Part shown: piece by piece, positions 3,217-31,796 of the stretch
How the letters are laid out: the number at the start of each line of letters is the position of its first letter
Position numbering within the stretch: the first letter of the stretch is position 1
Virus record (IMG/VR): IMGVR_UViG_3300028887_000075
Location: 1-64,000 of that record
DNA: 64,000 bases
Origin: a virus
Taxonomy: Duplodnaviria > Caudoviricetes
Reading direction: 5' to 3' (one strand)
Notes under the pieces: model-generated
Told to the model about the DNA's origin: nothing
Databases searched by the model: none
The model's input: only the letters and a program-made list of their open reading frames with translations
Made by a program: the position numbers and the translations under genes

Positions 3217-4641
3217 ATGTCAGAGTTTGTAGACTACATAATGAACGAATTGCATAGTGGATATTCTCTGAAGAATGCCTTGGTTGAATCCTATGTCGCT
3301 TTGTTCGAGGACGTCGCCTCGACCGCCGCCCATAAGACCAAGAGGGTCATCCGGGAGCTGTTTCCTCAACTTTCCGAGAAGTGGGACTCCGTTGCAGTAG
3401 ACGATACCGGCCGACCTATCCTGACGATGACTGGGAAGAAGCAATCGTATATCGAATATTTCGAGAGGAACATCCGAAATAACTTCTTCCATGACGGCGA
3501 GAACCAGAAGTTCGAGCCCGGAGTGGCGAGAATCGCCTACGGCGAGCTGAACATGGAGAACCGGGGGGAGGATTCGAGGAAGCTTTCATCCCTGAAGAAA
3601 ATTGTAATGTTGATTTCGGACGGCCATGCGGAGGAATACGATTCCGACCTGAACGGGCTTTCCTATTCCGACCTGGAGGCCAGGTTCGGAACGGTCGTCC
3701 AGAAGGCCGATGACGAGCTCAAGAACGAATTGACTTCTACCAAATACAAGTCCAGCGACTATGTCATCGAACCGATACCCGATTTCAAGACGGCGAAGAA
3801 GTTCAGCAAGTATACCAATCCTGACTCCCGGTGGTGCATCACGCACATGAAAAACATGTGGGATAGCTACACTTCGGACGGTCTTAACAAGGTCTACTTC
3901 GCGTACAAGCCCAACTTCAAGGAAGTTAGTCGGATAACGGGGAAGAATGCCCCGCTCGACGAATACGGGCTTTCCCTGATTTCCATCATTGTCGACCCGT
4001 GGGAGAATCTCCGCGCAGTCACTACCAGGTGGAACCATGACAACGGCGGCTCGGACCAGGCGATGGACGCGCGTCAATTATCGAAACTGCTCGGCGGCAA
4101 CGTGTTCGGGCTCTGTCCGCCTCCTCCGAAACCGGAACAGCATATCGACCGGGTGGACGAGGATTCCGTACGAATCGGCGACCAGATTTGGATGTGCCAC
4201 AACCTCCAGATGCCCGCCAACCCGGAACACGGCATCTATGTTGTCGACGGGGAGACATACTTCACCTGGGAAGCTGCAATGCGGGTATCTAAGAAATACG
4301 GGAATGGCTGGAGACTCCCTGCCAAGGAGGACTGGAAAAAACTATCCGACTTCTGCGGTGGGGCATCCAAGGCCGGTTCTCACCTGAAGTCTACTTCCGG
4401 CTGGAACGGGGAGAACGGGTTCGACACCTATGGGTTCGCCGGGAAGCCTGCCGGGTTCTACTCTCCCGATGGCTCCAGGGTGTACCGCGTAGGCTACGGC
4501 GGTTACTTCTGGTCATCTGCGCCGGAAGGTGCTTCGGGCGCATACGGCTGTAACCTCGGCGGCAGCGGCAGCTACTTCCACGACTACTACTATGATAGGT
4601 ACGTCGGGTTGTCCGTTCGGTTGCTCAAGGATTCCGCTTAA
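3217..4641 (+). CDS. ALFE-leader family protein: conserved core plus C-terminal FISUMP (Fib_succ_major-like) domain; possible DGR target
   Basis: Core FEPGVARIAY/DEYGLS/RWNH shared with 26589 and 29361; C-terminal IGDQIWMCHNL...GWRLP...YFWSS...SVRLLKD. Confidence 0.8.
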   Translation: MSEFVDYIMNELHSGYSLKNALVESYVALFEDVASTAAHKTKRVIRELFPQLSEKWDSVAVDDTGRPILTMTGKKQSYIEYFERNIRNNFFHDGENQKFEPGVARIAYGELNMENRGEDSRKLSSLKKIVMLISDGHAEEYDSDLNGLSYSDLEARFGTVVQKADDELKNELTSTKYKSSDYVIEPIPDFKTAKKFSKYTNPDSRWCITHMKNMWDSYTSDGLNKVYFAYKPNFKEVSRITGKNAPLDEYGLSLISIIVDPWENLRAVTTRWNHDNGGSDQAMDARQLSKLLGGNVFGLCPPPPKPEQHIDRVDEDSVRIGDQIWMCHNLQMPANPEHGIYVVDGETYFTWEAAMRVSKKYGNGWRLPAKEDWKKLSDFCGGASKAGSHLKSTSGWNGENGFDTYGFAGKPAGFYSPDGSRVYRVGYGGYFWSSAPEGASGAYGCNLGGSGSYFHDYYYDRYVGLSVRLLKDSA

Positions 4642-4699
4642 CCGGGTTCCGATGCGCCCGCGGCAGGCGTAGCCCCGCGGTGGAAGGAACCCGTAATTT

Positions 4700-4730
4700 A
4701 AAGCCCGCCATATGGCGGGCTTCTTTGTTT
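4700..4730. terminator. Bidirectional intrinsic terminator
   Basis: AAGCCCGCCA-TA-TGGCGGGCTT followed by CTTTGTTT, between convergent genes. Confidence 0.8.
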
Positions 4731-5286
4731 AAAGTTCGTGGTCGAGGTCCTCCCCGGTATCTCCCGGTTCCTCCCCGCCTTCTCCTTCGCCGCCTTCGTC
4801 GAACTCGTCGTCGAGTCCGTCGAGGCCGAGGTCCTCGCTGCTCCCGGAGTCTTCCCCGAACAGGTCGTCGCCTTCCCCGCCATCTTCGGCGAACAGGTCG
4901 TCGTCGGCGAACAGGTCGTTGCCGAAGTCCTCGTCCGGGTCACTCCCGAAGCCGAGGTCGTCCTCGGTAGGCGCCAGGGAGTCACCGGGGATTGCCGTTC
5001 CGAAGTCCGACAGGTTTCCCTGGTCGATTCCGGTGTCGATTGCCTTGTCGAGCGCATCTTCCGGGTTCACGTTCTTCCCGTCGTCGTATCCGGCTCCGGC
5101 TGCGAGGTCGAACACGCCGTCTCCTTCGGTCTCCATCGGGTTCGTCCCGACCTTCTCCCGGAGGTTGTCGAGGGCCGCGGCGGTGCCGACACCCTCGAAA
5201 ATCTTGTGGTACAGGGATTCCACCCGCTTCCTGAGGAGGGGGTCGTACTCGGTGAGTTCCTTGGTGAATCTGAGAAGGGCGTTCAT
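4729..5286 (-). CDS. Highly acidic protein with YHKIFEG leader motif; putative head-internal/scaffold-like protein
   Basis: D/E/G-rich C-terminus; GATAAACT motif upstream at 5310-5317. Confidence 0.7.
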   Translation of the reverse strand: MNALLRFTKELTEYDPLLRKRVESLYHKIFEGVGTAAALDNLREKVGTNPMETEGDGVFDLAAGAGYDDGKNVNPEDALDKAIDTGIDQGNLSDFGTAIPGDSLAPTEDDLGFGSDPDEDFGNDLFADDDLFAEDGGEGDDLFGEDSGSSEDLGLDGLDDEFDEGGEGEGGEEPGDTGEDLDHEL

Positions 5287-5309
5287 AATTTTTCCTCTTT
5301 CCATTGCGC

Positions 5310-5334
5310 AGTTTATCGTCTTTTGCTATATTTG
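5310..5334. promoter_or_regulatory. Back-to-back promoters: GATAAACT (minus) and TTGCTATATTTG (plus)
   Basis: AGTTTATCGTCTTTTGCTATATTTG; near-identical copy at 46332-46357. Confidence 0.7.
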
Positions 5335-5367
5335 GAGGCAACTGCTAACTAAAACGGAGAATTTCTT

Positions 5368-5949
5368 ATGAAATCAAAGGACGGAGCACTCAAGCTCGAC
5401 TTCATGGGCGGCCTCACCAAGTTCGTTACCAAGAACAGCGAGGTCCGCAAGTTCCAGGTCAAGACGTTCGGCAACGGTAACGACAGCGAGATTACCGGCA
5501 TTTCCAAGGCGTTCGGCAAGTGGGCGGACCGCGGTAACGTGCCCGAGCTGGCCAACTTCGACGAGAAGGTTCCCAGCGCGATGGTTCCCTGGAAGATTAC
5601 AATCCCGATGGGCGACTTCGGCATCTATGTGGACATGGACTTCGGTCACGACATCTACGGCGACGAGAAGGGCTTCTGCCTGAAGGCCATGCTTACCGAG
5701 GTAGTGTTCTCCGTGAAGAAGGGCGAACGCGAGGCTGTGTTCACATTCCTGAAGAACGGCGACGAGAGCGACGACGCGTTCTGCCGCGAGTTCCTCAACG
5801 CCAAGGAGGAGAACGAGAAGGGCAAGATGGTTCCGAAGCCGTTCCAGATTATCCTTGAGGAATGCGAGTCCTTCGTCATCGGCAACGAACCGGTCGAGGA
5901 AGAAGAAACCGAGGATGGCGACCCCGAACCGGTGGTCTACGAAGGATAA
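5368..5949 (+). CDS. Hypothetical protein
   Basis: 193-aa ORF, GGAG SD, typical codon usage. Confidence 0.75.
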   Translation: MKSKDGALKLDFMGGLTKFVTKNSEVRKFQVKTFGNGNDSEITGISKAFGKWADRGNVPELANFDEKVPSAMVPWKITIPMGDFGIYVDMDFGHDIYGDEKGFCLKAMLTEVVFSVKKGEREAVFTFLKNGDESDDAFCREFLNAKEENEKGKMVPKPFQIILEECESFVIGNEPVEEEETEDGDPEPVVYEG

Positions 5950-5958
5950 GGGGGGAAC

Positions 5959-6534
5959 ATGAAGATACTGAAGGCAACCAAGAAGCCCGTCACTATCGAA
6001 TGTATACAGTTCGACGGAAGGAACATCTCCGAAATCGAGAAGTTCGTAGGGAAGGAACTCAAGTTCAACGTGTTCTCGGATTCGGCATACGAGGCAGGCG
6101 TCGCGCCTCCACTGTTCACTGTCGAAATCGAGACCCTGGAAGGCAACCATACGGCTCTCCCAAACGACTACATCATCAAGGGTGTCAAGGGAGAGTTCTA
6201 TCCGTGCAAGCCTGACATCTTCCTGCGAACCTACAATATCGAGGATGACGGCAAGACCAAACTGTTCAATTTCGGTAGGGCGCTCGAGCTCCTCAAGGAA
6301 GGCAAGAAGGTATGCCGACTTGGATGGAACGGCAAGGGCATGTTCATCGTGCTGCAGCCGGGTTCCACGGTGAAAGGCAACCTGATGCGCAACGCGCCTG
6401 CCAAGGAATTCTACGGCGACGACGACGTATCCATTCGGGCGCACATCGACATGAAGGCTGCCGACAACTCATATACGGTCGGATGGACGGCCAGCCAGGT
6501 CGACATGCTTGCTGAAGACTGGATGGAATGCTAG
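5959..6534 (+). CDS. Two-domain protein: conserved phage domain (KKPV...GEFYPCKPDIF) fused to a DUF2829/Tad2-like domain
   Basis: C-half FNFGRALELLKEGKKVCRLGWNGKGMFI...GWTASQVDMLAEDW matches the DUF2829 pattern. Confidence 0.7.
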   Translation: MKILKATKKPVTIECIQFDGRNISEIEKFVGKELKFNVFSDSAYEAGVAPPLFTVEIETLEGNHTALPNDYIIKGVKGEFYPCKPDIFLRTYNIEDDGKTKLFNFGRALELLKEGKKVCRLGWNGKGMFIVLQPGSTVKGNLMRNAPAKEFYGDDDVSIRAHIDMKAADNSYTVGWTASQVDMLAEDWMEC

Positions 6535-6537
6535 TTC

Positions 6538-6870
6538 CTAGATAAAGCGCCTGGTGACAGGATTAGTGCAAAGGACGGCGACGGAGAGATGCTTCGTCGT
6601 CTTCTTTCTTATACGGACACGCTTCTTGCGTACCGGTGCCTGCACGGTAGGTGCCGGTGCCTTCGCCGGGGCTTCTGGTGCCTTTACCGGGGGCTGCACC
6701 GGGACCGCTACAGGTTCCTGCACTGGTGCTGCCGGTGGTTCCGGGATTGTTTCCGGTTCCTGCACTGGGGTCAACTCGGGGGTTTCCTCGGCTGCTTCCG
6801 GGAGGTCCCTGGGTTCTTCCGGGAGGATATTTTCCTGGTCATCTAAAATTTTCTTGCTTTTGCGAGCCAT
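6538..6870 (-). CDS. Pro/Glu-rich low-complexity hypothetical protein
   Basis: Start MARKSKK 8 nt downstream of TATAAACT (6879-6886, minus). Confidence 0.6.
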   Translation of the reverse strand: MARKSKKILDDQENILPEEPRDLPEAAEETPELTPVQEPETIPEPPAAPVQEPVAVPVQPPVKAPEAPAKAPAPTVQAPVRKKRVRIRKKTTKHLSVAVLCTNPVTRRFI

Positions 6871-6927
6871 ATAACCGGAGTTTATATTAGTTTCATTCCC
6901 AAAGAGAAAAACTCCAAGGAGATAACA

Positions 6928-7566
6928 ATGGTACAAGCAATAGCAATCTCAATCGTGGTAATCGGCATCGCCATCTACCTCGCGCTGTTCTTCCGCGGCA
7001 GGAAGGCCGGCAGCGAGATTATTGACGAGCTGGAAGCCCAGGCCGACGAACCGGAAACCGCCAAGGGTGAACAGGAAACACCGTTCAGCTCGGTCGAGAC
7101 GAGCAGCACCGGCACCGACGCCGCACTCGCCCACGACAGTTCCTCCGTAACCAAGAACATCACGTTCGAGGACACAATCAAGGGTGAGAAGGTCGTGGTC
7201 GAGGTTCCGTCGAAGGATGCCCGCAAGCGCCGCGTGGCCAAGAAGGTGACACCGGCCATCAAGAAGGCTCCCAAGAAGAAGCCGGTGACTACCGGTGACC
7301 TCGTGAAGGCACTCGAGGAAAAAATCGAGAAGCGCACCGCGCTCCTCAAGGACCTCAAGCTGAATACCGAGACCGACGCCACGCTCAAGCGCTACAACAA
7401 GATGCTCGTCGCCCTCAAGGCGAAGAAGACATTGCCGAAGAAGGTCGAGACCAAGAAGGTCCCGGTCGTCAAGGTGCGCGTGGTCGAAGAGGAAGTCAAG
7501 CCGGCGAAGAAGGCAAAGAAGCCCGCCAAGAAGACGACCAAGAAGACTAAGAAGTCGGCGAAATAA
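6928..7566 (+). CDS. Membrane-anchored protein with histone H1-like Lys-rich tail
   Basis: N-terminal hydrophobic helix; C-terminus KPAKKAKKPAKKTTKKTKKSAK; AAGGAG SD. Confidence 0.75.
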   Translation: MVQAIAISIVVIGIAIYLALFFRGRKAGSEIIDELEAQADEPETAKGEQETPFSSVETSSTGTDAALAHDSSSVTKNITFEDTIKGEKVVVEVPSKDARKRRVAKKVTPAIKKAPKKKPVTTGDLVKALEEKIEKRTALLKDLKLNTETDATLKRYNKMLVALKAKKTLPKKVETKKVPVVKVRVVEEEVKPAKKAKKPAKKTTKKTKKSAK

Positions 7567-7585
7567 CCTGCTTCAATGCCGACAA

Positions 7586-7616
7586 GAAGGGCCGGGGAAG
7601 TTCCCCGGCCTTTTCC
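7586..7616. terminator. Bidirectional terminator
   Basis: GGCCGGGGAA-G-TTCCCCGGCC followed by TTTT, between convergent genes. Confidence 0.75.
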
Positions 7617-7835
7617 TTATTTATATCGGTAGACTATTCTTCCCCGCCCTAGGTCATATGGACACAGTTCCACCTGTACCCTGTCATCGGGGTTCACCTT
7701 GATAGTATGCTTGGTCATCTTGCCGGAAGGTCTCACGAGCGCCTCGCACCCGTTGTCCAGTTCCACCAGGAAGAACCCGGAACCCCTGGCCTCCCTGACG
7801 GTGGCGTCGAGATATATGCCCTCTTCCTTAGCCAT
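7617..7835 (-). CDS. infA: Translation initiation factor IF-1
   Basis: 72 aa; MAKEEGI...FLVELDNG...SGKM...DRVQVELCPYDLGRGRIVYRYK. Confidence 0.92.
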   Translation of the reverse strand: MAKEEGIYLDATVREARGSGFFLVELDNGCEALVRPSGKMTKHTIKVNPDDRVQVELCPYDLGRGRIVYRYK

Positions 7836-8145
7836 CCGCCATCCCCAGCTTCTTCCTTAGATGGGACTCCACGAACACGTACTCCCGGTCGATGGCCGTC
7901 ACCTTCCCGTCCCTCTCGGAGAAAATGAGAACGCCGTCCCTGTTGCGGTAGACATCGCAGTCCTTCCTGCTCTTGGAACAGATTATGGTGATTACGAAGT
8001 CGGAATAGGTGTATCCCGGACCCCTCATGCCAATCAGCTCGACCGTCCCGGAGGTCCTGCACAGCTTCTTCAGGGCCTTCTCCACGCAGTAGCGGAAGTT
8101 CTCCTGGTCGATATTTAGAAGCATTTCTGGACTGGTATCTTGCAT
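7828..8145 (-). CDS. Hypothetical protein upstream of infA
   Basis: Start 8 nt after TATAAACT (8154-8161, minus); stop overlaps the infA start. Confidence 0.6.
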   Translation of the reverse strand: MQDTSPEMLLNIDQENFRYCVEKALKKLCRTSGTVELIGMRGPGYTYSDFVITIICSKSRKDCDVYRNRDGVLIFSERDGKVTAIDREYVFVESHLRKKLGMADG

Positions 8146-9061: not shown

Positions 9062-9064
9062 AAT

Positions 9065-15221: not shown

Positions 15222-16868
15222 ATGGCTGCTAAGGACGGGACGAAGGCCCTCGAGGACCTTCTGGTTAAGATTGAGATAGACAGCGACGACTGGGTGAAGA
15301 AGAGCGCCCGGGAGAAGCTGAAGATGCTGGTTGCGGAAGTCCGGATGAACTCCGAGAAGCTCGTGGGGGTGGCGGAGGACCTGGTTACGTCAATAGCCTC
15401 GATAGTGAGGGCGAATACCAGCAACCCCGCGGTCGACGCTTACCTGGGACTGCTGGAGACCGGCTTCGGGCTGATTAAGGCGAACACCGTGATGAACAAC
15501 GTGTTCGTATCTGCGAAGCATGAGGTGCACAACCAGTATGACGGGCTGGCAAAGTTCATGCGCATCGGCAGGGGAATCGACATGGTGGGCGACTCGATGG
15601 AGTCCACCTGCAGCATCTGCAAGGCGTTCATCTCCCTGACGCCGAAGGAACAGGCCAAGTACGGACTCCGTTTCCGCAAGGTGAGCGAGGAGGTGCCCGA
15701 GGACGACGACAAGAACGCTCCCCTCGTCACCATGATTGACACCGACTACACCTACAAGGGCGACACCTTCCGTATAGGCTTCGAGGTCAGCTACTACGAG
15801 CCCAAGAGGAAGGGCGACCGGCTCGGCGACGAGAGCAGCTACGCGTTCATCAACTTCGCCACCCCGATAGACCAGTTTGGCTTCGACGCGATGGAGTCCG
15901 TGCCCGCCATGATTTACGGGTGCTACATCGACCGGGTGGACATCAAGAAGAACATCATCAAGATTAAGAACGGGATACTCTATGTAGAACCCCGGGTGAA
16001 CATCGACTTCGACGTGAAGAACTTCGACCTGTACGACGATGACGGCAGGGTAATCAGGACGATGGAGACAGAGTCCGCCCTGATAAGGCGTATCCTGAAT
16101 GCCGGAGGCAGGCGTGGGTACATCGTGCAGGGCGACCAGGGCACCGGGAAGACCATCTCGGTCAACAAGATGCTAATGGGTTTCACCGACGTGCCTGTAT
16201 TCTGGATTTCCCCCGACTCGATTTCGAAGGCCGCCGGGATGGACAACGTGTTCCGTGTCCTCAACATGTTCCCGGGCAGCTTCTTCGTGTTCGACGACTT
16301 CGACGGGAACAACTTCTCGACCAAGAACGCTCTTACCGGCGCCTTCATCGACTACATCGACGAGACCAACTCCCCGCAGTACAGGGGAATCACGATACTC
16401 ATAATCAACGAGCCCCAGAAGCTCCACAGCACCATCAAGCTCCGCCCGGGCAGGATTGACGACATCATCTACGTCAGGAACCCGGGAGACGTTGCGCAGG
16501 TATGCGACGTCGTGGAGCAGACGTTCAGGCACCTGGGCCACGAGAAGCCCGACTGGGTCACCCCGGAGAACCCCGAGTTCGCCTCCGCGTGCGAGCCGGT
16601 ATTCGGCGCACACCTCACCCACGCATACATCGCCGGTGTCGTCACCGACATGGTCAAGTACTGCCCGGAGGACATTTCCGTCGGCAAGTTCCGGGAGCTC
16701 GTCTCCAGGAGGATTACGACCATAAAGTACGCCCGCATGGTGGCGATGGACGACGGCCACATCGTTGACGGAGGACCCCCGAAGGAGATTGTCCCGGAGG
16801 CAATAAACTCCGAATCCGACGACGAGGACATGGACGACATCTTCGATGACGGCGACCTTCCGATGTAA
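15222..16868 (+). CDS. AAA+ ATPase
   Basis: Walker A GDQGTGKT, Walker B FVFDDFD, arginine finger LRPGRIDD. Confidence 0.8.
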   Translation: MAAKDGTKALEDLLVKIEIDSDDWVKKSAREKLKMLVAEVRMNSEKLVGVAEDLVTSIASIVRANTSNPAVDAYLGLLETGFGLIKANTVMNNVFVSAKHEVHNQYDGLAKFMRIGRGIDMVGDSMESTCSICKAFISLTPKEQAKYGLRFRKVSEEVPEDDDKNAPLVTMIDTDYTYKGDTFRIGFEVSYYEPKRKGDRLGDESSYAFINFATPIDQFGFDAMESVPAMIYGCYIDRVDIKKNIIKIKNGILYVEPRVNIDFDVKNFDLYDDDGRVIRTMETESALIRRILNAGGRRGYIVQGDQGTGKTISVNKMLMGFTDVPVFWISPDSISKAAGMDNVFRVLNMFPGSFFVFDDFDGNNFSTKNALTGAFIDYIDETNSPQYRGITILIINEPQKLHSTIKLRPGRIDDIIYVRNPGDVAQVCDVVEQTFRHLGHEKPDWVTPENPEFASACEPVFGAHLTHAYIAGVVTDMVKYCPEDISVGKFRELVSRRITTIKYARMVAMDDGHIVDGGPPKEIVPEAINSESDDEDMDDIFDDGDLPM

Positions 16869-16900
16869 GAAAAAAATAACATCGCGTGGAACACCCATGA

Positions 16901-16948
16901 AATCTAGATGTTGTGGATTTTTGCCCGTTTGAGCACTAGATATTGTGG
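16901..16948 (+). promoter_or_regulatory. Tandem NrdR boxes upstream of nrdD
   Basis: AATCTAGATGTTGTGG (16901-16916) and GCACTAGATATTGTGG (16933-16948), 32 bp apart, resembling the consensus acaCwAtATaTwGtgt. Confidence 0.7.
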
Positions 16949-17023
16949 ATTTACGGCTTGTTTCCCGCCGGGAAATCCTATAAACAGAAACCGCTTTGGA
17001 AACAGAAAAGAGGAATTTGAAGT

Positions 17024-18712
17024 ATGCTGCTGCACGTTACCAAGAGAGACAAGAGACGCAGAAAGTTCGACCCCAAGCACATCTACGACGCCATAACGGC
17101 CGCATTCAAGGACAGCAAGGAGAAGTATACCGAGGAGGAACTCGACTCCCTAGTGAGCACCGTGATTGACACCGTATCCGCAAACGGCGCCAAGTCGGTA
17201 AATGTGGAAAAGATACAGGATACCATCGAGCGTACTCTGATGACATCAGGGTTCCTGGACACTGCTAAGGCGTTCATCACCTACCGTGCAGAGCGTACCC
17301 GTATCAGGGACCTGGACAACGACCTGAACCGCAGGGTAAGAGAAATCATCGATGCCAACCTGAAAACCAGTTCACTTCTCCGCGACAACGGCAATGTCAA
17401 TGGTGCACTGGTGGCATCGTCCATGGCGAAGGCCGGCGGCGAGACGATGAAGATGTATAACCTGCTGGGTAAGATAAAGCCGGAAATTGCCAGGGCACAC
17501 AAGAACGGCGATATCCATATTCATGACCTGGACTACTACTCTCTGACCATCAACTGCTTCTTTATCCCGCTGGCAGTACAGCTGGCTGAAGGGTTCGATA
17601 CCGGAAACGGCTGGGTGCGCCCGGCAAATTCCATAGAGACTGCATGCGCAATCGGAGCAATTTCCCTTCAGACCTCACAGAATGCCTTCTTTGGTGGGCA
17701 GGCGTTTGCCAACTTTGACTTTGACCTTGCCCCTTATGTGAACCGTAGTTTCCAGAAAAACCTGAAGCGTATGCTCAGGAACGCCATTGTGACCGCAGAG
17801 GCCATGGGTACTGGAAATCCGGCAGACCTCGAGGCACTCCGGAAAATTCGTGCAAAGTATGACCTTCGTATTATCAAGGATGTTTCCACGAAGGACCTGA
17901 AAGAATTCATCGTAGCCTACAAGGGTGAACTGGACGACTACGAATGTGGCCGAGAAGTACTCCCGGAGCTGCCCTACGATGAATTCGACCGTACCTACGT
18001 GATTGACCTGGGTGATGGCACCAAGTGGACCATGCCGGCATCCATGGTCGATGAAGCCGACATGCAGACCGTGAGAAACACGTTCCAGGGACTCGAGTCG
18101 TTCGTCCACAACGTGAATAGCCTTTTCTCCCGCTCCGGTAACCAGCTCCCGTTCAGTTCCGTGAACTTTGGCCTCGATACGTCAAAGAGTGGCCGTCTCG
18201 TGTCATTTGCGCTATTGCATGCGACCGAGGTGGGCATCGGGAACGGAGCCACTGCAATATTCCCTATTTCCATCTGTAAGGAAATGGCTGGCTATACCAT
18301 CAACCCGGAAGACCCCAACTATGATATCTGGGAAAAGTCGTGCGAGGTTCTGGCTGAACGCTTCTATCCGAACTTCGTAAACGTCGATGCCCCCTATAAC
18401 AAGGTATACGTGAAGTACGACGAGATGGAAACCGAGTTCAACCGGGAGAACCTGGTAGACAACCGGGGCCAGCGGCTGTACCGTGTTGCTCCCGGGAGGT
18501 TCTGGGAGTTCGTATCGGAGAAGGACGGTGTAGCCAAGCTGCGCAAGCTCCGTCCGGAAACCACTATATCCACGATGGGTTGTGCAAGGGGTGACTCTAG
18601 GATTACTGTCAAGATTGATGGTGTGGTTTACCGTAATATCACGATGGAAGCCGCGTTTGACTTGATAAAAGAGCTACGTACACAGAAAGACGCATCTGAA
18701 GAGGAGGTTTAA
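17024..18712 (+). CDS. nrdD: Anaerobic ribonucleoside-triphosphate reductase, N-terminal part plus 43-aa intein N-fragment
   Basis: ATP cone (VTKRD...FDPKHI), GDIHIHDLD, SRSGNQLPFSSVNFG; STMG followed by intein start CARGDSRI. Confidence 0.9.
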   Translation: MLLHVTKRDKRRRKFDPKHIYDAITAAFKDSKEKYTEEELDSLVSTVIDTVSANGAKSVNVEKIQDTIERTLMTSGFLDTAKAFITYRAERTRIRDLDNDLNRRVREIIDANLKTSSLLRDNGNVNGALVASSMAKAGGETMKMYNLLGKIKPEIARAHKNGDIHIHDLDYYSLTINCFFIPLAVQLAEGFDTGNGWVRPANSIETACAIGAISLQTSQNAFFGGQAFANFDFDLAPYVNRSFQKNLKRMLRNAIVTAEAMGTGNPADLEALRKIRAKYDLRIIKDVSTKDLKEFIVAYKGELDDYECGREVLPELPYDEFDRTYVIDLGDGTKWTMPASMVDEADMQTVRNTFQGLESFVHNVNSLFSRSGNQLPFSSVNFGLDTSKSGRLVSFALLHATEVGIGNGATAIFPISICKEMAGYTINPEDPNYDIWEKSCEVLAERFYPNFVNVDAPYNKVYVKYDEMETEFNRENLVDNRGQRLYRVAPGRFWEFVSEKDGVAKLRKLRPETTISTMGCARGDSRITVKIDGVVYRNITMEAAFDLIKELRTQKDASEEEV

Positions 18713-24837: not shown

Positions 24838-26499
24838 ATGGCTGAACAGAGCAACTTCCTTGACATTCTAAGGGCCCTCGGGGAGCAGATACCCCGTTTC
24901 TCTACCGATTTCATCACCCCGGACGGCATAGACTGGGGAAAACTGAAGAAGACAATCCGCTGCGCGTCGTTCAAGAGCATCATGCCGGCGTGCACCCTGG
25001 GGACCGACCTGGCCATGAAGCTCCTGGAGAACTCCAGGAACCGCCAGCTGAAGGAATTTGTGGGCTTTGCGAGAAACAGCATCGCGCTGTACTCAATCCT
25101 CGACAACATCTACGCTAACGTGCAGCCGTCCAACTCGATGGAGAACAGGGCGGAAATCGTGTTCTGGAAGGAAATCGCGTCTAAGTTCAACGTGGAAATC
25201 CCCATCTGCGACAAGTACTCCGGCGCATGTGCCGGCCCCATCCCCATCGGGGATATCCTGATGTACCTGACCTACCGCATGAAGCTGAAGACAACATATG
25301 CATTCAGCGTGGACGACAAGCACTTCGACTTCACCATCGAGGGTGCCGAAGGCAACCCGCCGACCATCAACTCGACCGGCAACATCATCATTACTAGTCC
25401 GCTGTGTGTGCTGATTCGCTGCCGTCAGCTCCGTTCCCCGGGTGGGGAGGTGATGGTGGAGACGCTCTATGTCCTCAAGATGGAGAAGTTCACCATGGAT
25501 GCCGCGGTCAAGGAAGGCGGCATGGCCGCGCTGACTACTCCTGACGGTGACGGAGCGAAGTTCGTCGGCAGCCAGATTCTCTCCGAGCATGCAGCGTTCG
25601 TGACCGAGCACCCGACGCAGGCCAACGAGCAGTGCGTCCAGTCGTGTCTCGCCTACATCTACCGCGAGCTCGACCCGCAGAAGTACCACTACCATGTGGA
25701 TTCCTCCCGTATCTACGTTCGCCCGAACGAGAAGCTCGCCGACGCCGAGCTCTGGGTCCCGTCCGAGAAGATGAAGCAGATTTCCGAATGGTGCAGGAAC
25801 GCCGCCAACATCAAGCAGTCCGTGTCCTATGCCCTAGTCGGTCCTCTGGGAACCGGAAAGACCAGTACCTGCCAGCACATCATGGAGGACCTCACGAAGC
25901 AGGGCTACATGATTATCACCTGCAAGCTCGACGACCGTTCGCTAGATACGACCTTGGAAAGAATCATCTTCTGCACCAACATGTCCGAAAAGTCGGTAAT
26001 CCTCCTGGACGAGCTCGACTCCCTCAACATCAAGCAGAAGACCAGCGAGACCGCGGCAATCATCGAGTTCTTCGCCAAGCTGAAGGCCTCCAAGTACCTC
26101 AGCATCGTCATGTCGACAATCAACGACCCAGAGGCGGTCCACGAGTCCGTCATGGAACGTGATGGCCGCATTGACGAGGTCATCGAGGTCGGATTCCCGT
26201 CCGAGGACATGATGATGCAGCTCTTCAAGAGCTACGCCGACAAGGCCAACTACAACATCCCGGAGGATGTCATGACGGCCACCGTGAAGAAGCTTACCGA
26301 GATGGAGGTGTCGGCCGCCGGCGTCGCCAACATCGTGAACCAGATTTTCATCAAGAACGGAGCCAAGGACTCCTACACCCAGGAGGACATGGACCTCGTG
26401 CTGGCAAGCGTCAAGGTAAGCCGCGAAGCTTCCCGCAAGACCTACTACCGCAGGAAGAAGCCAGCCGATGGTAGTGGTGCCGTGCTGAGCCAGGGATAA
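24838..26499 (+). CDS. AAA+ ATPase
   Basis: GPLGTGKT, ILLDELD, RDGRIDE; TTGCTATATTTG at 24792-24803. Confidence 0.8.
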   Translation: MAEQSNFLDILRALGEQIPRFSTDFITPDGIDWGKLKKTIRCASFKSIMPACTLGTDLAMKLLENSRNRQLKEFVGFARNSIALYSILDNIYANVQPSNSMENRAEIVFWKEIASKFNVEIPICDKYSGACAGPIPIGDILMYLTYRMKLKTTYAFSVDDKHFDFTIEGAEGNPPTINSTGNIIITSPLCVLIRCRQLRSPGGEVMVETLYVLKMEKFTMDAAVKEGGMAALTTPDGDGAKFVGSQILSEHAAFVTEHPTQANEQCVQSCLAYIYRELDPQKYHYHVDSSRIYVRPNEKLADAELWVPSEKMKQISEWCRNAANIKQSVSYALVGPLGTGKTSTCQHIMEDLTKQGYMIITCKLDDRSLDTTLERIIFCTNMSEKSVILLDELDSLNIKQKTSETAAIIEFFAKLKASKYLSIVMSTINDPEAVHESVMERDGRIDEVIEVGFPSEDMMMQLFKSYADKANYNIPEDVMTATVKKLTEMEVSAAGVANIVNQIFIKNGAKDSYTQEDMDLVLASVKVSREASRKTYYRRKKPADGSGAVLSQG

Positions 26500-26530
26500 C
26501 TTATACAGCCACGAGCTGTAGTTCCATAGG

Positions 26531-26560
26531 GGCTACCGGGATATCCCGGTAGCCTCTTTT
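26531..26560 (+). terminator. Intrinsic terminator
   Basis: GGCTACCGGGA-TA-TCCCGGTAGCC followed by TCTTTT. Confidence 0.8.
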
Positions 26561-26588
26561 GGTTCGGAAAAATGATAAACTGCGGAAT

Positions 26589-29360
26589 ATGAATCGCTTC
26601 CGTAACTATCTCAGCAGAATCGAGGACAGGCCGCTTGCAGAGGCGGTCGGCCGCATGTACCATGCGCTGTTCGAAGGTCTTACTCCGCAACAGAAGACAC
26701 GCAGGACCATAAGGGCAATATTGAATCCTCCCCCGTCCGGATGGGATTCTCCTGCGGTACGTACCGACGGCTCCGAGTTCGTATCGGAACACGGTACCAC
26801 ACTTACCTGGGACCAGGTGCTGGAGACGTACCTGCGCGGGCTTGTCTTCCGGGACAAGGCGATTTCTCCCAAGTTCGAACCGGGAGTTGCACGTATTGCA
26901 TACGGGGAGCTCGGGGTGTGGCCTGAGGACATCGAGGACTTCCGCACGGAAAAGCCTGAAAGCAAGCCGCTCGGGCAGTTCAGGTCTATACTGCACATGC
27001 TGAGCGGGGACGCACATGTCAACGAGTACGACTTCGACCTGAACGGCCTCAAGTATGCGGAACTGGTTGACCGTTTCGGCAAGTCCAGTTCGGAGGCCGA
27101 TGCCGACGATACCGAGGACACCGGGGTACTCAACTATAAAATCGTACACATCCCGGACTTCGAGACGGCACAGGAATACGCCAAGTATACCAACAGGTGG
27201 TGCGTATGCCATTACCGGAACTACTTCAACAGGTACACAGCCCGTGGAAAGAACACGTTCTACATGCTGTTCGCTCCCGGGTTCGAGGACATGGAGGACG
27301 TGCACGGAGAGAACTATCCGAAGGACGAGTACGGGCTGTCGGTGATAGGCCCGATGATTGCCCCGGACGGAAGCGTGGAGTACTGCTGTGTCCGCCGGAA
27401 CCACGAGGGCGGCATGGGAGACCATGCACTTACCGAGAAGGAACTGTCCAGGCTGCTGGGGCGTCCGGTACGCAAGGTTCTCCCGCATATCGAGAACGAA
27501 TCAGCAATGAGCATAACCGCCAGGGTGAAGGCCCAGATGGCCAAGGGAATGAAGCCGGAGGAGATATACGGCTCGGTCGACGGGAGGCCCTGGGAGAATG
27601 CTACGATTTACCGGCAGAAGGACGGGACCAAGGTCCTGGTTGACAACAGCACTATGCTGCCGCTGGTCGACTACGAGCTGGATTCCTGGGGAAGCCTGGA
27701 CGATAGGGCTATATATGCCGACGTGGCTGTCGGGACGACCGAGTATGACGACGACATGTTCGTAACCTTCCTAATCCGGAAGGACGGTAGCGTGTTCGCC
27801 ATCGGGGCTTCCGACATAGAAGCGAGGGATGAATACGACCCGCTGTATTACGACGTGGTATCCAACATTTCATCGTCCGGCATAGCCGGCCTATACCACG
27901 TGCGTCTTGACAACGGATACAGTTGCGACCAGACACTGGTGTACTTGCCGGAAACTGGTGGACCGTTCGGAGTAACTGACATTCACGAGGAGATTACCGT
28001 CTATGCCGAAGACGGGCTTGTCGTATGCGACCCGGAAAGCGACACCTTGTCCAGTGGGGAAGGCGACCTGGAGATATTCCGAGTCTATCCTGATGGTACA
28101 CGGAAGGAACTGCTCGGTAACAATACGCTGGGGTCGGCGCCTATCCACGTGTTTGTCTGCGATGAGGGAATGCCCGACGGCAAGGTAAACGTACTATACG
28201 ATGATAGCGACGGCGAGCTGATAATTATTCATGATGGCGAGGAAAAGGGAACCGGCATATATGCGTACGACTTCGACTACATCGACAACCGCGTGTATCC
28301 CGGTGTCATATGGGTCGAGAAGGAGGACGAGCCCGGCTACTGCGTATATTCACTGAAGGACATGAAGCTACTTGCCGACAATCTCCCGGGTAAACCAGAC
28401 GACAGCGGTATATTCGAGGATGCCGACGGGCTGAAGAACATTGTTACCGGCCATGGAGTCCTGCTGGAACACCCGGCTTTAGCCATAGAGGTAACCGGGA
28501 GCTTCCGTACTCCAATCAGACTTGCTCTCCGGCACAAGGACGATAGGGGGCGATGGCACAGTTCCTACTTCATCGATGCGACTATGCCGGACGGCGAGCA
28601 TTTCGTCGACATGGATACCGGGAAGGAACTGTATGACAGGGCCATACCGAATGAAGCATACCCGTACACGGAGACCCTGTACGTCGGCCCCGTCGCCGAG
28701 GGAGACAAGACCAGGAGGGCCATGTTCACGCTCGATGGTAGACAGACTTCATGCTCGTTCGACAAGCTGGACATGATAAGCGAGATAATTAAGCGATGCG
28801 ACAAACAAGGCAAGGCGACCGGGTACAACCTGGTTAATCCTGATACCGGGAAGGAGCTGTTCCCTGATTGGCTGGCGTCTCGCCCGGAATTCCTATCGGG
28901 GTCGATGGTAAAGGACGGCATCGACCGTGGCCTGCTACGCTGCACCCGTGAGGACGGCAAGAAGACGATAGTCATGATGCTTACACCGGTGGAAGTCAAT
29001 AAGGACAATGGTACTGAAAAGATAGGCAACAGCCGGTTCGAGATGACCGACCTCGGGTGGCACGACCACTTCGAACAGGTACCCGGCTGCCCGTTCGTCC
29101 TGCTGATACATGACTCGTCTACCGGGAAGATGCCCGTGGAGTCGAAGAAGTACCTCACTGTGGCATACGACTTGCGCACCGGGAAGCATACCGGGAGATA
29201 TCCTGGCCCAAGACTGATAGCGACATTCCGGGCGCTATGCAAGGAGTACGGTGCCGACCTGGACAACCGGGGCATAGCGAGTACGCTCTCCGTATGCCCG
29301 GAATGGACCGAATGGATTGACGCACACATAAATACTGCTGAAAAGTGGAGGGAAGACTAG
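26589..29360 (+). CDS. ALFE-leader family protein with large acidic beta-rich C-terminal region
   Basis: YHALFEG; conserved core; ATG 7 nt after GATAAACT (26574-26581). Confidence 0.8.
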   Translation: MNRFRNYLSRIEDRPLAEAVGRMYHALFEGLTPQQKTRRTIRAILNPPPSGWDSPAVRTDGSEFVSEHGTTLTWDQVLETYLRGLVFRDKAISPKFEPGVARIAYGELGVWPEDIEDFRTEKPESKPLGQFRSILHMLSGDAHVNEYDFDLNGLKYAELVDRFGKSSSEADADDTEDTGVLNYKIVHIPDFETAQEYAKYTNRWCVCHYRNYFNRYTARGKNTFYMLFAPGFEDMEDVHGENYPKDEYGLSVIGPMIAPDGSVEYCCVRRNHEGGMGDHALTEKELSRLLGRPVRKVLPHIENESAMSITARVKAQMAKGMKPEEIYGSVDGRPWENATIYRQKDGTKVLVDNSTMLPLVDYELDSWGSLDDRAIYADVAVGTTEYDDDMFVTFLIRKDGSVFAIGASDIEARDEYDPLYYDVVSNISSSGIAGLYHVRLDNGYSCDQTLVYLPETGGPFGVTDIHEEITVYAEDGLVVCDPESDTLSSGEGDLEIFRVYPDGTRKELLGNNTLGSAPIHVFVCDEGMPDGKVNVLYDDSDGELIIIHDGEEKGTGIYAYDFDYIDNRVYPGVIWVEKEDEPGYCVYSLKDMKLLADNLPGKPDDSGIFEDADGLKNIVTGHGVLLEHPALAIEVTGSFRTPIRLALRHKDDRGRWHSSYFIDATMPDGEHFVDMDTGKELYDRAIPNEAYPYTETLYVGPVAEGDKTRRAMFTLDGRQTSCSFDKLDMISEIIKRCDKQGKATGYNLVNPDTGKELFPDWLASRPEFLSGSMVKDGIDRGLLRCTREDGKKTIVMMLTPVEVNKDNGTEKIGNSRFEMTDLGWHDHFEQVPGCPFVLLIHDSSTGKMPVESKKYLTVAYDLRTGKHTGRYPGPRLIATFRALCKEYGADLDNRGIASTLSVCPEWTEWIDAHINTAEKWRED

Positions 29361-31796
29361 ATGGACAGCTTTTCTCGATACCTGATGGAAAACGTAACCA
29401 ACGCGTTCGTGCGCAGGTCGGCAAACAGGGCGTTCAATGCCCTGTTCGAGGGGCTTACCCCTTCTCAGAAAACCCGCCGGGCAATCCGCGGTATGCTCCC
29501 GGAGCCTCCGGGAGGCTGGGACGCACCCGCCATGGATGCCGACGGGAACCAGCGGTTCACTGCCGAGAACGGAAGGCCGATGACCTATGCCGAGGCGCTC
29601 GAGTACCATGTCCGCAATACGTTCTTCCATGACGGCGGAAGGTCCAATCCCCGGTTCGAACCGGGCGTGGCCCGCATAGCCTACAAGGAGCTCGGCCTGT
29701 GGCCGGAAGGGCTGGAGGACTGGGCGAAAGGCCAGAGGCCAGCCTCGACGGACACCGCGTCGGTCGGCAGGTTCGCCCGTATCCTGCGCGAAATCAGCGC
29801 GTCGCATTCCGACGACTACGACTCCGACCTCAACGGAATGTGGTGGATGGAGATATATGCGCAGTTCGCCCACGGGAGCACCGGGGAGAAGTACGTCAAC
29901 GAGGACGCGGACGGCACAGGGAGCAAGTACAAAATAGTATGGATTAGGAACTACGAGGATGCACGGGAGTACGGCAAGTACACGGAAGGTACCCAGAGGT
30001 GGTGCCTCACGGAATACCGCCGCTACTGGAACCACTATACCAAGGGGAACACTGTGAAGATGTACTTCCTTGTATCCCCCGACGTAGATAAGGTGGAACC
30101 GGTTCCCGGCCCGAACGCCCCTCTGGATGAATACGGGCTTTCGTTGATTGGGGTCGGTATAGCGCCTGACGGCACCCTGGACAACTGCTGTACCAGGTGG
30201 AACCACATGCACGGCGGGTCCGACATGGCAATGGACGAGGAACAGCTGTGCAAGCTTCTGAACGTCAGGGAACTGTCCGACGTATGCCCGCCGTTCACCG
30301 ACGAAGACCGGGCAGAAACGGAAGCAAAGTTCGACCAGCTCGTAGAGATGGCACGGACGGGGAACGCGCCGCACGGCCGCAAGGTCGAACTGGTACATTC
30401 GTTCGGGGATGTCCGCGTGTATGACATACCCCTTGGTGCAGGGGAACATTACAAGATTGTCCTGAAGTCCGACGGTACCCCGGTAATCAAGTACCCGATT
30501 TGGGACGAGAAGGTGCACGGGGATTACTCGATGGTTGCCTTCTACGACCCGTACTTCGGCGATAACGGGAGCGTGTTCGATGGCGAGCCGGAAAGCGGCA
30601 GCAGGGTGATAGTGCGGTATGACGGCGCAGCATACACTTCGCCCGACGACGATGAAGACATAGAGTATGAGGACGTGCTATACGGGACGGAACGCAGGAA
30701 AGGCCGGGAAGGAATCAACTACGGCCGCGCATACCTGGTCAGTGAGACATACGGCGACACATTCATGTTCGACGTCGCCAAGATGGACTGGACCGGGGAG
30801 GAAGTCAGGGTGGACGACGTGTCCGGAAACCTGTTCCTGTTGAACGGAGGTACCCTGTGCGTGATGACCCCGGACGGCTACAAGGAGCTGACCGACGACG
30901 TATATGACGACGCCGAGGACTTCTTCTACGGCAGCGGGTTTGCAGGATGCTGTAAATACAATGGCAATCTTGAACGCTCGTATGTACTGTATGACGACAT
31001 CACCGGGGAACTTCTGTCGGAGCGGCTCGACATACAGAACTCAAGCATCATAATGGGCAAGCTCGCATTGCAGCTGGAATACAGTGACGGAACCATGGAG
31101 CTGCTGGGAGTCGACGGAAAGCCGCTTATCGGAAAGGGAGACATGGCCGACGACCGGCCAAAGATATACGACCTGCGTGGCGAAACGGTGAAGTCATTCT
31201 TCGGGGCACTGTCCAAGGAAGGCGAGCTTGTCACCGCCGACTGGGGCACCGACGATGACGGCATCGCCAAGGTCAACTCACTGGTAAAGCTGAAGCTTCC
31301 CGTCATGGATATCCCGGAAGGTGCCGTGGTGCGCCCCGTGATTGCGGGTAACGGCGGCATAGGCGCACTGGTCCGCAACGGGAGGAAGTCCCGGGCAAGG
31401 TACATTTCCCCCGACGGCAGGGAATACCTGGGACCGTACGACGACTGGGACACCGAACTGACCGACCGCGCCGCCCTGATACTTGAACGGGACAACGGTC
31501 CCGAGAGCGTACTGTATGGCGACCGGCTCGTCCCGGTGAACATCCTTGACCCGACCACGGGCATCCCGGTGTTCCCCCCGGAGTTCGAGCGGAAGATGTC
31601 CGGCAGCCTACGGGAGATACTGTGGGTCAAGTCCGCTAGGAAGCTATACATGGAGTTTGCCGGAAAGGACCGGGAGCGCAGGGCGTTCTCCATGGAGCTC
31701 GGCGGGGAAATGAAGGAAATCAATCCGGAACAGGTTGACTACATGGTGAACAACCGGATGTACGACCACATACGTATGAACCCGAAATTCAGGTGA
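29361..31796 (+). CDS. ALFE-leader family protein, tandem paralog with divergent C-terminal region
   Basis: FNALFEG; RFEPGVARIAY, PLDEYGLSLI, TRWNHMHGGSD. Confidence 0.8.
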   Translation: MDSFSRYLMENVTNAFVRRSANRAFNALFEGLTPSQKTRRAIRGMLPEPPGGWDAPAMDADGNQRFTAENGRPMTYAEALEYHVRNTFFHDGGRSNPRFEPGVARIAYKELGLWPEGLEDWAKGQRPASTDTASVGRFARILREISASHSDDYDSDLNGMWWMEIYAQFAHGSTGEKYVNEDADGTGSKYKIVWIRNYEDAREYGKYTEGTQRWCLTEYRRYWNHYTKGNTVKMYFLVSPDVDKVEPVPGPNAPLDEYGLSLIGVGIAPDGTLDNCCTRWNHMHGGSDMAMDEEQLCKLLNVRELSDVCPPFTDEDRAETEAKFDQLVEMARTGNAPHGRKVELVHSFGDVRVYDIPLGAGEHYKIVLKSDGTPVIKYPIWDEKVHGDYSMVAFYDPYFGDNGSVFDGEPESGSRVIVRYDGAAYTSPDDDEDIEYEDVLYGTERRKGREGINYGRAYLVSETYGDTFMFDVAKMDWTGEEVRVDDVSGNLFLLNGGTLCVMTPDGYKELTDDVYDDAEDFFYGSGFAGCCKYNGNLERSYVLYDDITGELLSERLDIQNSSIIMGKLALQLEYSDGTMELLGVDGKPLIGKGDMADDRPKIYDLRGETVKSFFGALSKEGELVTADWGTDDDGIAKVNSLVKLKLPVMDIPEGAVVRPVIAGNGGIGALVRNGRKSRARYISPDGREYLGPYDDWDTELTDRAALILERDNGPESVLYGDRLVPVNILDPTTGIPVFPPEFERKMSGSLREILWVKSARKLYMEFAGKDRERRAFSMELGGEMKEINPEQVDYMVNNRMYDHIRMNPKFR

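What the first reader, a model, noticed from the sequence alone, without database searches (positions are those of the whole stretch)
3217..31796. Polymorphic protein family: conserved ~290-aa core joined to different C-terminal modules
Seen: genes 3217, 26589 and 29361 share a collinear core (FEPGVARIAY.EL; YD.DLNG; YT..WC; P.DEYGLS.I; R.NH..GG) ending at LCPP/VLPH/VCPP. They then switch to different C-termini: a FISUMP domain in 3217 and two divergent 500-600-aa acidic beta-rich regions. The partial gene at 63413 is a more distant member (ALFEG, Y..IPV..WCI..W.SY). All carry the ALFE leader; 26589 and 63413 directly follow the putative late promoter. Inference: a modular effector-like system in which a fixed core with an invariant WC and an NH motif (possibly catalytic) is paired with variable binding modules and possibly packaged in the virion. 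I do not recognise it as a described system.
Basis: partly seen in the sequence, partly recalled or inferred. Interest (0 to 1): 0.85.

Follow-up and report, generated by a model that had tools for sequence, protein, structure and literature searches.

The report
Unnamed modular protein family of huge phages
Four genes in this fragment of a very large bacteriophage genome belong to a big, unnamed, almost virus-only protein family that joins a conserved enzyme-like front half to a binding-type back half. A short leader that looks cleavable suggests, without proving it, that the proteins are loaded into the phage head and delivered to the host with the DNA.

Summary
Genes 3217, 26589 and 29361 share a collinear N-terminal core of about 300 aa (38-45% identity, E 1e-59 to 1e-73). 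Gene 63413 (ends at 65095, outside the window) is a distant member that keeps only the leader and the WC...RxN(H) subdomain (hhalign 98%, E 3e-13).

The core has no Pfam, PHROG, NCBIfam, PADLOC or PDB match, and its confident AF2 model (pLDDT 92) has no clear solved fold. Yet it defines a large family: 1,089 50%-identity clusters. The family is absent from 50,697 GenBank phages, nearly absent from 185,579 bacterial and archaeal species genomes, and occurs at 1 to 19 copies in 340-470 kb phages.

The "different tails" claim is only partly right. The tails of 26589 and 29361 are distant homologues and fold as beta-propellers, the fold class I expect, but did not show, for the family's usual WG-repeat tail. 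Only 3217 carries a swapped module (FISUMP).

Every member keeps a leader ending in hydrophobic-x-Glu. Five complete family-bearing phages all encode a T4 gp21-type head protease and a gp23 capsid protein.

Best reading (about 0.4): protease-processed head cargo ejected into the host. This is not a polymorphic toxin system. Other windows of this scan had already noted the leader on this genome and similar tags on other DNA.

The parts
2087..2093 (+). ATAAACT heptamer 7 nt before the ATG of gene 2101, which heads the two-gene unit 2101-3207 / 3217-4641
   Evidence: The same heptamer lies 28 nt before the tail-sheath gene at contig 142592 (PHROG 23, 8.8e-28).
2101..3207 (+). Upstream gene of the 3217 unit (368 aa), no family match
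   Evidence: no Pfam, PHROG or PADLOC hit. It ends 9 nt before 3217.
3217..4641 (+). Family member 1 (474 aa): leader to Glu31 (3217-3309), core residues 1-303 (3217-4125), FISUMP / C-type-lectin-like tail residues 318-471 (4168-4629)
   Evidence: Full-length orthologues with FISUMP tails exist in related phages.
26529..26560 (+). GC-rich hairpin plus T-run after the AAA ATPase gene, separating it from the 26589 unit
   Evidence: Read directly from the upstream sequence printed.
26575..26581 (+). ATAAACT heptamer 7 nt before the ATG of 26589
26589..29360 (+). Family member 2 (923 aa): leader to Glu29 (26589-26675), core residues 1-300 (26589-27488), tail residues 306-923 (27504-29357) with predicted beta-propeller(s) at 24-556 and a helical end at 568-608 (tail numbering)
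29361..31796 (+). Family member 3 (811 aa), its ATG abutting the TAG of member 2: leader to Glu30 (29361-29450), core residues 1-312 (29361-30296), tail residues 317-811 (30309-31793) distantly homologous to the tail of member 2
   Evidence: AF2 of residues 1-320: pLDDT 92.4, pTM 0.71.
63399..63405 (+). ATAAACT heptamer 7 nt before the ATG of 63413
63413..64000 (+). Distant family member 4 (560 aa; continues to contig position 65095): leader to Glu24 (63413-63484); WC...RxN(H) subdomain at residues 156-272 (63878 onward, running past the window end)

Best explanation
These are late-expressed virion cargo proteins of a T4-like huge myovirus.

Each protein has three parts:
- An N-terminal leader of about 25-30 residues, an amphipathic helix ending in hydrophobic-x-Glu followed by a small residue (ALFE|G or ALFE|D).
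- A conserved two-lobed core of about 270 aa. Its C-terminal alpha/beta lobe carries an invariant constellation: Y190, W214-C215 at a helix N-terminus, Y226, Y235, S261 and R279-x-N281(-H).
- A binding-type tail, either a beta-propeller or a FISUMP lectin-like domain.

Proposed mechanism, all steps inferred:
1. The leader targets the protein to the scaffolding core of the prohead.
2. The gp21-family head protease removes the leader after the Glu.
3. The mature protein is ejected with the DNA.
4. The tail then holds a host target while the core acts on it, or on a small molecule, possibly through the invariant Cys.

Shown here:
- The paralogy and the domain limits.
- A confident model of the core with no clear match among solved structures.
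- The near virus-only distribution.
- Invariance of the leader Glu.
- Co-occurrence with gp21- and gp23-type head genes.
- A shared upstream motif with the tail sheath gene.
For: 1. The leader Glu is invariant in all 62 aligned full-length homologues. It is followed by S, N, D or G and lies 5-50 residues from the N-terminus in 45 of them.
2. Upstream of the Glu the leaders vary in length and sequence, but often repeat an I-T-E-x-Q or L-T-E-type motif. Multiple sites of this kind occur in known propeptides (SPN3US, PMC5694885).
3. Internal units of multi-copy polyproteins keep their own leader motif, as expected if it is a processing site.
4. All five complete family-bearing genomes (344-422 kb) encode Peptidase_S77 (T4 gp21) above the Pfam cut-off. 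The four tested for it also encode a gp23-type capsid protein. Those capsid proteins have h-h-x-E|[AS] at the position that, from my recollection of the T4 gp23 sequence, matches its maturation site.
5. In this contig at least 12 otherwise unrelated proteins behind ATAAACT carry the same [GAS][YF]xxhhE[GSNAD] leader. One is a GNAT acetyltransferase with a ~45-aa extension. Solo GNATs among late phage genes have been proposed as capsid cargo (PMC5512222).
6. ATAAACT also precedes the tail sheath gene.
7. Relatives are fused to ART-PolyVal and NUDIX. ART-PolyVal is a hallmark domain of the injected polyvalent proteins; NUDIX is another enzyme domain.
8. Copy number varies from 1 to 19 per genome, like the head paralogue families of SPN3US and phiKZ (PMC5694885).
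Against: - There are no virion proteomics for any member, and no cultured phage carries the family.
- The head protease and capsid genes are not on this 41%-complete contig.
- h-x-E is a low-information motif, and the invariant Glu could instead be a structural or catalytic residue of the domain. In the model, residues 1-30 are two helices modelled at moderate confidence (pLDDT 75-87).
- The tails are acidic (pI 4.6), whereas, from memory, the T4 internal proteins are basic.
- The tail types (lectin-like, LRR, choline-binding, propeller) are more typical of surface binding than of intracellular action.
- A Cys-His mechanism is weakened because His282 is replaced by Arg or Thr in part of the 63413 subfamily.
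Confidence: 0.4

Rival explanations
1. These are virion-surface adhesins or accessory receptor-binding proteins. The conserved core docks on the capsid, tail or baseplate, and the variable tail (beta-propeller, FISUMP lectin-like domain, LRR, choline-binding repeats) binds host envelope or environmental glycans.
For: - The C-terminal module types are those of surface-binding proteins.
- FISUMP belongs to the DUF1566 / Fib_succ_major class of diversified surface proteins (PMC5758913).
- The same window holds four more FISUMP proteins at 36-41 kb.
- The upstream motif is the one before the tail sheath gene.
- Multi-copy expansions resemble phages with many receptor-binding proteins.
Against: - The core has an enzyme-like invariant polar and aromatic set rather than fibre or trimerisation features.
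- Relatives are fused to intracellular enzymes, ART-PolyVal and NUDIX.
- Up to six cores are concatenated in one reading frame.
- A shared leader with an invariant Glu, also found on a GNAT enzyme, is not expected for fibres.
Confidence: 0.22
2. These are non-packaged intracellular effectors, for example counter-defence proteins made during infection. The propeller, LRR or lectin tail recognises a host immune or metabolic protein, and the core modifies or sequesters it or a signalling nucleotide. The N-terminal motif is simply part of the fold.
For: - Gene 3217 lies 1.3 kb from a Tad2-like anti-Thoeris gene (PF11195, 2.9e-24).
- Relatives are fused to ART and NUDIX.
- There is a weak, non-significant but in-register resemblance to the PcfJ domain. 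In pCF10, PcfJ sits beside an AcrIIA9-family gene.
- An AAA ATPase is a conserved neighbour.
Against: - The same leader is shared with otherwise unrelated proteins, and the same heptamer lies upstream of the tail sheath gene.
- Polyprotein units each keep the leader.
- There is no match to any PADLOC or anti-defence model.
Confidence: 0.2
3. This is a polymorphic toxin-like system: a fixed trafficking core with interchangeable toxic C-termini and cognate immunity genes. This is the strong form of the first reader's idea.
For: Only the general layout of a conserved N-terminus and varied C-termini.
Against: - The C-termini are binding folds, not toxins.
- The conserved, enzyme-like part is the N-terminal core.
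- Each architecture is kept in orthologues.
- No small immunity-like gene follows; 29361 abuts 26589.
- Two of the tails are homologous.
Confidence: 0.03

Closest known systems
T4 internal proteins IPI/IPII/IPIII and Alt: head cargo bearing a capsid-targeting sequence and processed by gp21 (PMC3012670, PMC5694885)
   Same: A short N-terminal leader ending in hydrophobic-x-Glu on otherwise diverse proteins. The carrier phages encode gp21- and gp23-type head genes. Some relatives carry an Alt-like ART domain. The proposed role is delivery with the DNA.
   Different: There is no sequence or fold similarity to IPs or Alt. The leaders are longer (about 25-45 aa against about 10). The proteins are far larger, acidic and multi-domain. 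Packaging and cleavage are untested.
Head paralogue families A (PF12699) and B of phiKZ-like giant phages such as SPN3US (PMC5694885)
   Same: Expanded, copy-number-variable paralogue families of giant-phage head or ejection proteins. Propeptides are cut by a gp21-like protease at x-E motifs, sometimes at several sites.
   Different: There is no Pfam PF12699 hit. The phage lineage differs (T4-like gp23 heads, rumen or gut origin suggested only by the names of two MAG records). Here there is a fixed enzyme-like core plus a binding tail.
Polyvalent proteins of phages and conjugative elements (Iyer et al. 2017, PMC5512222)
   Same: Relatives are giant multi-unit polypeptides and include ART-PolyVal. 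Delivery with the DNA and processing into units are predicted.
   Different: The window's proteins are single-unit. I did not find this core named in the passages of that paper I searched or in Pfam's LPD models. Most partners are binding repeats rather than enzymes.
PcfJ domain (PF14284) of pCF10 and many Herelleviridae, Polaribacter and Bacteroides phages
   Same: The same order of elements: strand, helix, [H/W]-C at a helix start, Y, G, hydrophobic strand. Foldseek against viral models lists many PcfJ-like proteins at weak E-values.
   Different: The Pfam model finds nothing in this contig or in five family-bearing genomes. The profile-profile score is not significant (2.5%, E 0.018). The function of PcfJ is unknown in any case.

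Membership tests
T4-type capsid-targeted, gp21-processed head cargo | N-terminal leader ending in (L/I/F)-x-Glu followed by a small residue | tested here: met
   ALFE|G or ALFE|D at residues 26-31 of all four genes. The Glu is invariant in 62 of 62 homologues, with P1' = S, N, D or G.
T4-type capsid-targeted, gp21-processed head cargo | The phage encodes a gp21-family (Peptidase_S77) prohead protease | tested here: inconclusive
   Not on this 41%-complete contig. Present above cut-off in all five complete family-bearing genomes tested.
T4-type capsid-targeted, gp21-processed head cargo | The protein is found in virions with the leader removed | not testable with these tools
   No cultured phage carries the family.
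T4-type capsid-targeted, gp21-processed head cargo | Late expression together with structural genes | tested here: inconclusive
   ATAAACT lies 7 nt upstream of 26589, 63413 and 2101, and 28 nt upstream of the tail sheath gene. No transcript data.
phiKZ/SPN3US head paralogue family A | Match to Pfam PF12699 | tested here: not met
   No PF12699 hit for the four proteins at E<=0.1 or among 62 homologues at E<=0.001.
PcfJ (PF14284) | Match to the Pfam model above the gathering score | tested here: not met
   No hit at E<=10 in the contig, at E<=1 in five huge-phage genomes, or in direct scans.
PcfJ (PF14284) | Remote homology by profile-profile or fold comparison | tested here: inconclusive
   hhalign A3 vs an 11-sequence PcfJ alignment: 2.5%, E 0.018, but aligned in register around the Cys. 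BFVD Foldseek lists PcfJ-like models at E 5e-3 to 0.2.
Polyvalent proteins (Iyer et al. 2017) | Several disparate effector domains in one large polypeptide | tested here: not met
   The window proteins have one core plus one binding tail. Only relatives are multi-unit or carry ART-PolyVal or NUDIX.
Polymorphic toxin systems | Variable C-terminal toxin domain with an adjacent immunity gene | tested here: not met
   The tails are FISUMP or beta-propeller. No downstream small gene: 29361 abuts 26589.
WG_beta_rep (PF14903) tails | Pfam repeat match in the tail | tested here: inconclusive
   No hit for the window tails at E<=0.05 or with a crude home-made repeat profile. The fold is beta-propeller. 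PF14903 is the partner in 19 of 62 homologues and in most of the 120 closest relatives of P0073.
DGR target protein (FISUMP / CLec2 class) | A template repeat and a reverse transcriptase in the same element | tested here: inconclusive
   No template-like copy of 4301-4700 and no RVT_1 match in the 170.7 kb held, but the contig is only 41% complete.

The most novel reading that the evidence does not exclude
The core is a new enzyme fold. It would use an invariant Cys at a helix N-terminus together with Tyr, Ser, Arg and Asn residues. Huge T4-like phages would have multiplied it up to 19-fold, tagged it for head packaging, and fused it to propeller, LRR or lectin 'aiming' modules. That would make it a previously unrecognised class of injected, target-directed effectors, perhaps sharing ancestry with the equally uncharacterised PcfJ domain of plasmids and Herelleviridae.
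Probability: 0.25. Interest if true: 0.8.

Novelty: new variant of a known kind. Interest (0 to 1): 0.62.

Why it matters
If the reading is right, huge phages of what appear to be gut and rumen communities carry a large arsenal of injected proteins, with many copies per genome. These proteins are built on one unknown catalytic or ligand-binding scaffold with interchangeable target-binding tails.

This would extend the T4 and phiKZ concept of head cargo to a family with over a thousand sequence clusters that no library I searched names. It would give a concrete handle (leader, invariant Cys, propeller tail) for testing what huge phages deliver at the moment of infection. It could also shed light on the widespread PcfJ domain.

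Even if packaging is wrong, the family deserves a name and a model in the domain databases.

Tried and rejected
- **Family libraries:** Pfam, PHROGs, NCBIfam and PADLOC scans of the four proteins gave nothing for the core or the long tails.
- **Solved structures by sequence:** a PDB sequence-profile search with the 85-sequence alignment found no chain at E<=1.
- **Papain-like or NlpC/P60 Cys-His idea:** suggested by Cys215 at a helix start, but no such chain appeared in either search, and the His is not invariant. Not adopted.
- **PcfJ link:** the Pfam model and hhalign were not significant. A search from pCF10 PcfJ returned only close Enterococcus relatives, so a phage PcfJ alignment was built instead.
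- **GenBank phages:** tblastn with two core queries found no match.
- **GTDB species genomes:** only two MAG contigs matched.
- **DGR for the FISUMP tail:** no template repeat or reverse transcriptase on the contig.
- **WG repeats in the window tails:** a home-made repeat profile was not significant.
- **Head genes on this contig:** Peptidase_S77, Phage_capsid and Gp23 were not found. The contig is a fragment.
- **Literature:** searches for PcfJ and WG_beta_rep gave no functional information.
Full report
**1. What is in the sequence**

The window is the first 64 kb of a 170,734-bp IMG/VR virus record that CheckV rates 41% complete. ORFs 3217-4641 (474 aa), 26589-29360 (923 aa) and 29361-31796 (811 aa) share their first ~300 residues:
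- 26589 vs 29361: 40% identity, E 8e-73.
- 3217 vs 29361: 38% identity, E 2e-59.

An HMM of the three cores, run against all 640 ORFs of the contig, finds only these three plus the gene at 63413 (E about 1e-4). That gene ends at 65095, outside the window (560 aa).

To test the fourth gene without circularity, I collected its own six homologues. I compared that alignment with the family alignment from which it had been removed. hhalign gives 98% probability, E 2.8e-13, for residues 156-272 against core residues 189-308. The fourth gene therefore shares the C-terminal alpha/beta lobe and the ALFEG leader, but not detectably the helical lobe.

**2. The core is a large, unnamed, almost virus-only family**

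- None of Pfam, PHROGs, NCBIfam or PADLOC recognises the core.
- A profile search of 1.84 billion cluster representatives found 1,089 with E<=1e-3 and 361 with E<=1e-30.
- A second search from an AT-rich member found 1,467 90%-identity clusters in the 336-1070 aa range alone. Where a source gives a name at all, it is 'hypothetical protein'.
- The most widely conserved unit is profile positions ~122-303. It occurs up to four times in proteins of 1,900-2,500 aa.
- tblastn against 50,697 GenBank phage records found nothing.
- A pattern scan of one genome for each of 185,579 prokaryotic species gave two hits, both MAG contigs: a rumen Prevotella bin and a gut Spirochaetia bin.
- IMG/VR gave 69 loci, many on contigs of 200-422 kb.
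- In five complete or near-complete records (344-422 kb) the copy number is 1, 2, 6, 10 and 19. One 3,289-aa frame holds six copies.

**3. Structure of the core**

AF2 on residues 1-320 of the 29361 protein, with an 85-sequence alignment, gave mean pLDDT 92.4 and pTM 0.71. The model has two lobes:
- A helical lobe of about 170 residues. Residues 1-30 form two helices that end at the ALFE Glu.
- An alpha/beta lobe spanning residues 190-312.

Trp214-Cys215 sit at the N-terminus of a helix. Arg279-Trp-Asn281-His282 follow a beta hairpin.

Residues invariant across 85 sequences are Y190, W214, C215, Y226, Y235, S261, R279 and N281. H149, N158, D256, H282 and D288 are conserved in at least 90%. In the 63413 subfamily the His is replaced in two of seven sequences, so 'NH' is better written RxN(H).

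Foldseek against predicted viral structures gave one strong uncharacterised hit (E 2.8e-6) and a tail of 'PcfJ-like' proteins at E 5e-3 to 0.2. I followed this lead:
- The Pfam PcfJ model hits neither this contig nor five family-bearing genomes.
- hhalign against a PcfJ alignment built from pCF10 and ten phages is not significant (2.5%, E 0.018).
- That alignment does, however, place strand, helix, [H/W]-Cys, Tyr, Gly and a hydrophobic strand in register.

The link stays a lead.

**4. The tails**

Each paralogue has its own full-length orthologues in related phages, so the architectures are old and stable:
- FISUMP tails: P0015, P0041, P0027, P0031.
- Long tails of the 26589 type: eight proteins.
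- Long tails of the 29361 type: P0008 and P0010.

The tails of 26589 and 29361 are themselves distant homologues (hhalign 91%, E 1e-6, 204 columns). This fits their head-to-tail position, TAG followed directly by ATG.

Across the family the commonest partner is the Pfam WG beta repeat: 19 of 62 homologues, and most of the 120 closest relatives of an AT-rich member. Rarer partners are BspA-type LRR, LRR_8, ART-PolyVal, NUDIX and choline-binding repeats. The window's long tails show WG-like short motifs, but no significant sequence match.

Within the window the picture is therefore two homologous propeller tails, one tail I could not classify (63413), and one real module swap (FISUMP; PF09603 3.6e-16, TIGR02145 1.2e-21).

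**5. The leader and the head-cargo hypothesis**

- In an alignment of 62 full-length homologues the leader Glu is invariant, followed by S, N, D or G. In 45 of them it lies 5-50 residues from the start.
- AT-rich members read hydrophobic-hydrophobic-T/N-E then SQESKSI or NRESKNM. Many have an additional I-T-E-x-Q motif further upstream.
- Internal units of polyproteins repeat the whole leader.
- All five complete genomes tested encode Peptidase_S77 (T4 gp21), with E 4e-29 to 6e-12. The four tested for it also encode a gp23-type capsid protein, with E about 1e-57 to 1e-65.
- The N-termini of those capsid proteins carry h-h-x-E|[AS] where, from my recollection of the T4 gp23 sequence, its maturation site falls. 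That positional equivalence was judged by eye, not by alignment.
- Giant phages such as SPN3US have copy-number-variable head paralogue families processed at x-E motifs, sometimes at several sites in one propeptide (PMC5694885).
- In this contig ATAAACT occurs 35 times, against roughly 11 expected from my own base-composition estimate. It lies 7 nt before the ATG of 26589, 63413 and 2101 (the gene heading the 3217 unit), and 28 nt before the tail sheath gene (PHROG 23, 8.8e-28).
- At least 12 ATAAACT-driven, otherwise unrelated proteins carry the same [GAS][YF]xxhhE[GSNAD] leader. One is a GNAT acetyltransferase with a ~45-residue extension (PF00583, 9e-10).

All of this is circumstantial. The protease and capsid genes are not on this fragment, no virion data exist, and the invariant Glu could belong to the fold.

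**6. Rivals**

- **Surface-adhesin reading.** Favoured by the kinds of tail modules and by four more FISUMP genes at 36-41 kb.
- **Non-packaged effector or counter-defence reading.** Favoured by the nearby Tad2-like gene, by the ART and NUDIX fusions, and by the conserved AAA ATPase neighbour (62-64% identical in three relatives).
- **Polymorphic-toxin reading.** Does not fit: the conserved part is the enzyme-like part, the tails are binding folds, and there are no immunity-like genes.

**7. Verdict**

It overstates the polymorphism and the role of the His.

The kind of thing, leader-tagged paralogous head cargo of giant phages, is known from T4 and phiKZ-like phages. This family, its core fold and its core-plus-binding-tail design appear to be undescribed. 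Other windows of this scan had already noted the leader on this genome, and analogous tags on other huge-phage DNA. I used those notes as leads only.

Noticed in passing
window 36011-41054 (- strand): A low-GC island (41-45% against ~57%) encodes four separate FISUMP (Fib_succ_major) proteins, Pfam E 2.5e-8 to 6e-28. They are 27-43% identical to the FISUMP tail of gene 3217. These are the only five FISUMP ORFs on the contig.
   Followed up: partly
window 5959-6534 (+): A 191-aa protein with a Tad2-like (Thoeris anti-defence 2) domain, PF11195 2.9e-24. Its N-terminal half matches PHROGs that include a nucleotide pyrophosphohydrolase.
   Followed up: no
window 24838-26499 (+): An AAA ATPase (PF00004, 2e-11; weak PADLOC IetA match, 5e-7) lies directly upstream of the 26589/29361 pair. 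It is kept within a few kb of their orthologues, at 62-64% identity, in three related IMG/VR contigs (L005-L007), although order and orientation vary.
   Followed up: partly
contig 132157-132753 (- strand; locus L110), outside the window: A GNAT acetyltransferase (PF00583, 9e-10) carries a ~45-residue N-terminal extension with the same G-Y-x-x-h-h-E-S leader. It sits 7 nt behind an ATAAACT.
   Followed up: partly
whole contig; e.g. window 5304(-), 44076(+), 46311(-); contig 83392(-), 94352(+), 127593(+), 137893(-): At least 12 ATAAACT-preceded genes of unrelated sequence share an N-terminal [GAS][YF]xxhhE[GSNAD] motif at about residues 20-45. TTGCTATATTT (37 copies) looks like the Bacteroidota -7 promoter type (TAnnTTTG, from memory), hinting at a Bacteroidota host.
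   Followed up: partly
G003 (IMGVR_UViG_3300028888_000044), about 203.9-214.9 kb and 372.4-377.8 kb: Single open frames of 3,289 aa and 2,408 aa hold six and three copies of the core. I did not check whether these are true polyproteins or read-through of recoded stop codons.
   Followed up: no
contig 142592-146347 and 133565-136498 (loci L087, L095): Tail sheath (PHROG 23, 8.8e-28; an unusually long 1,251 aa) and a family-B-type DNA polymerase (PHROG 262, 1.6e-140). The phage is therefore a myovirus, and its relatives carry T4-like gp21 and gp23 genes.
   Followed up: partly
L076 (pCF10, NC_006827) 15874-17984: The type PcfJ gene of pCF10 overlaps an AcrIIA9-family anti-CRISPR gene. This suggests that the uncharacterised PcfJ domain sits in an anti-defence context.
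   Followed up: no
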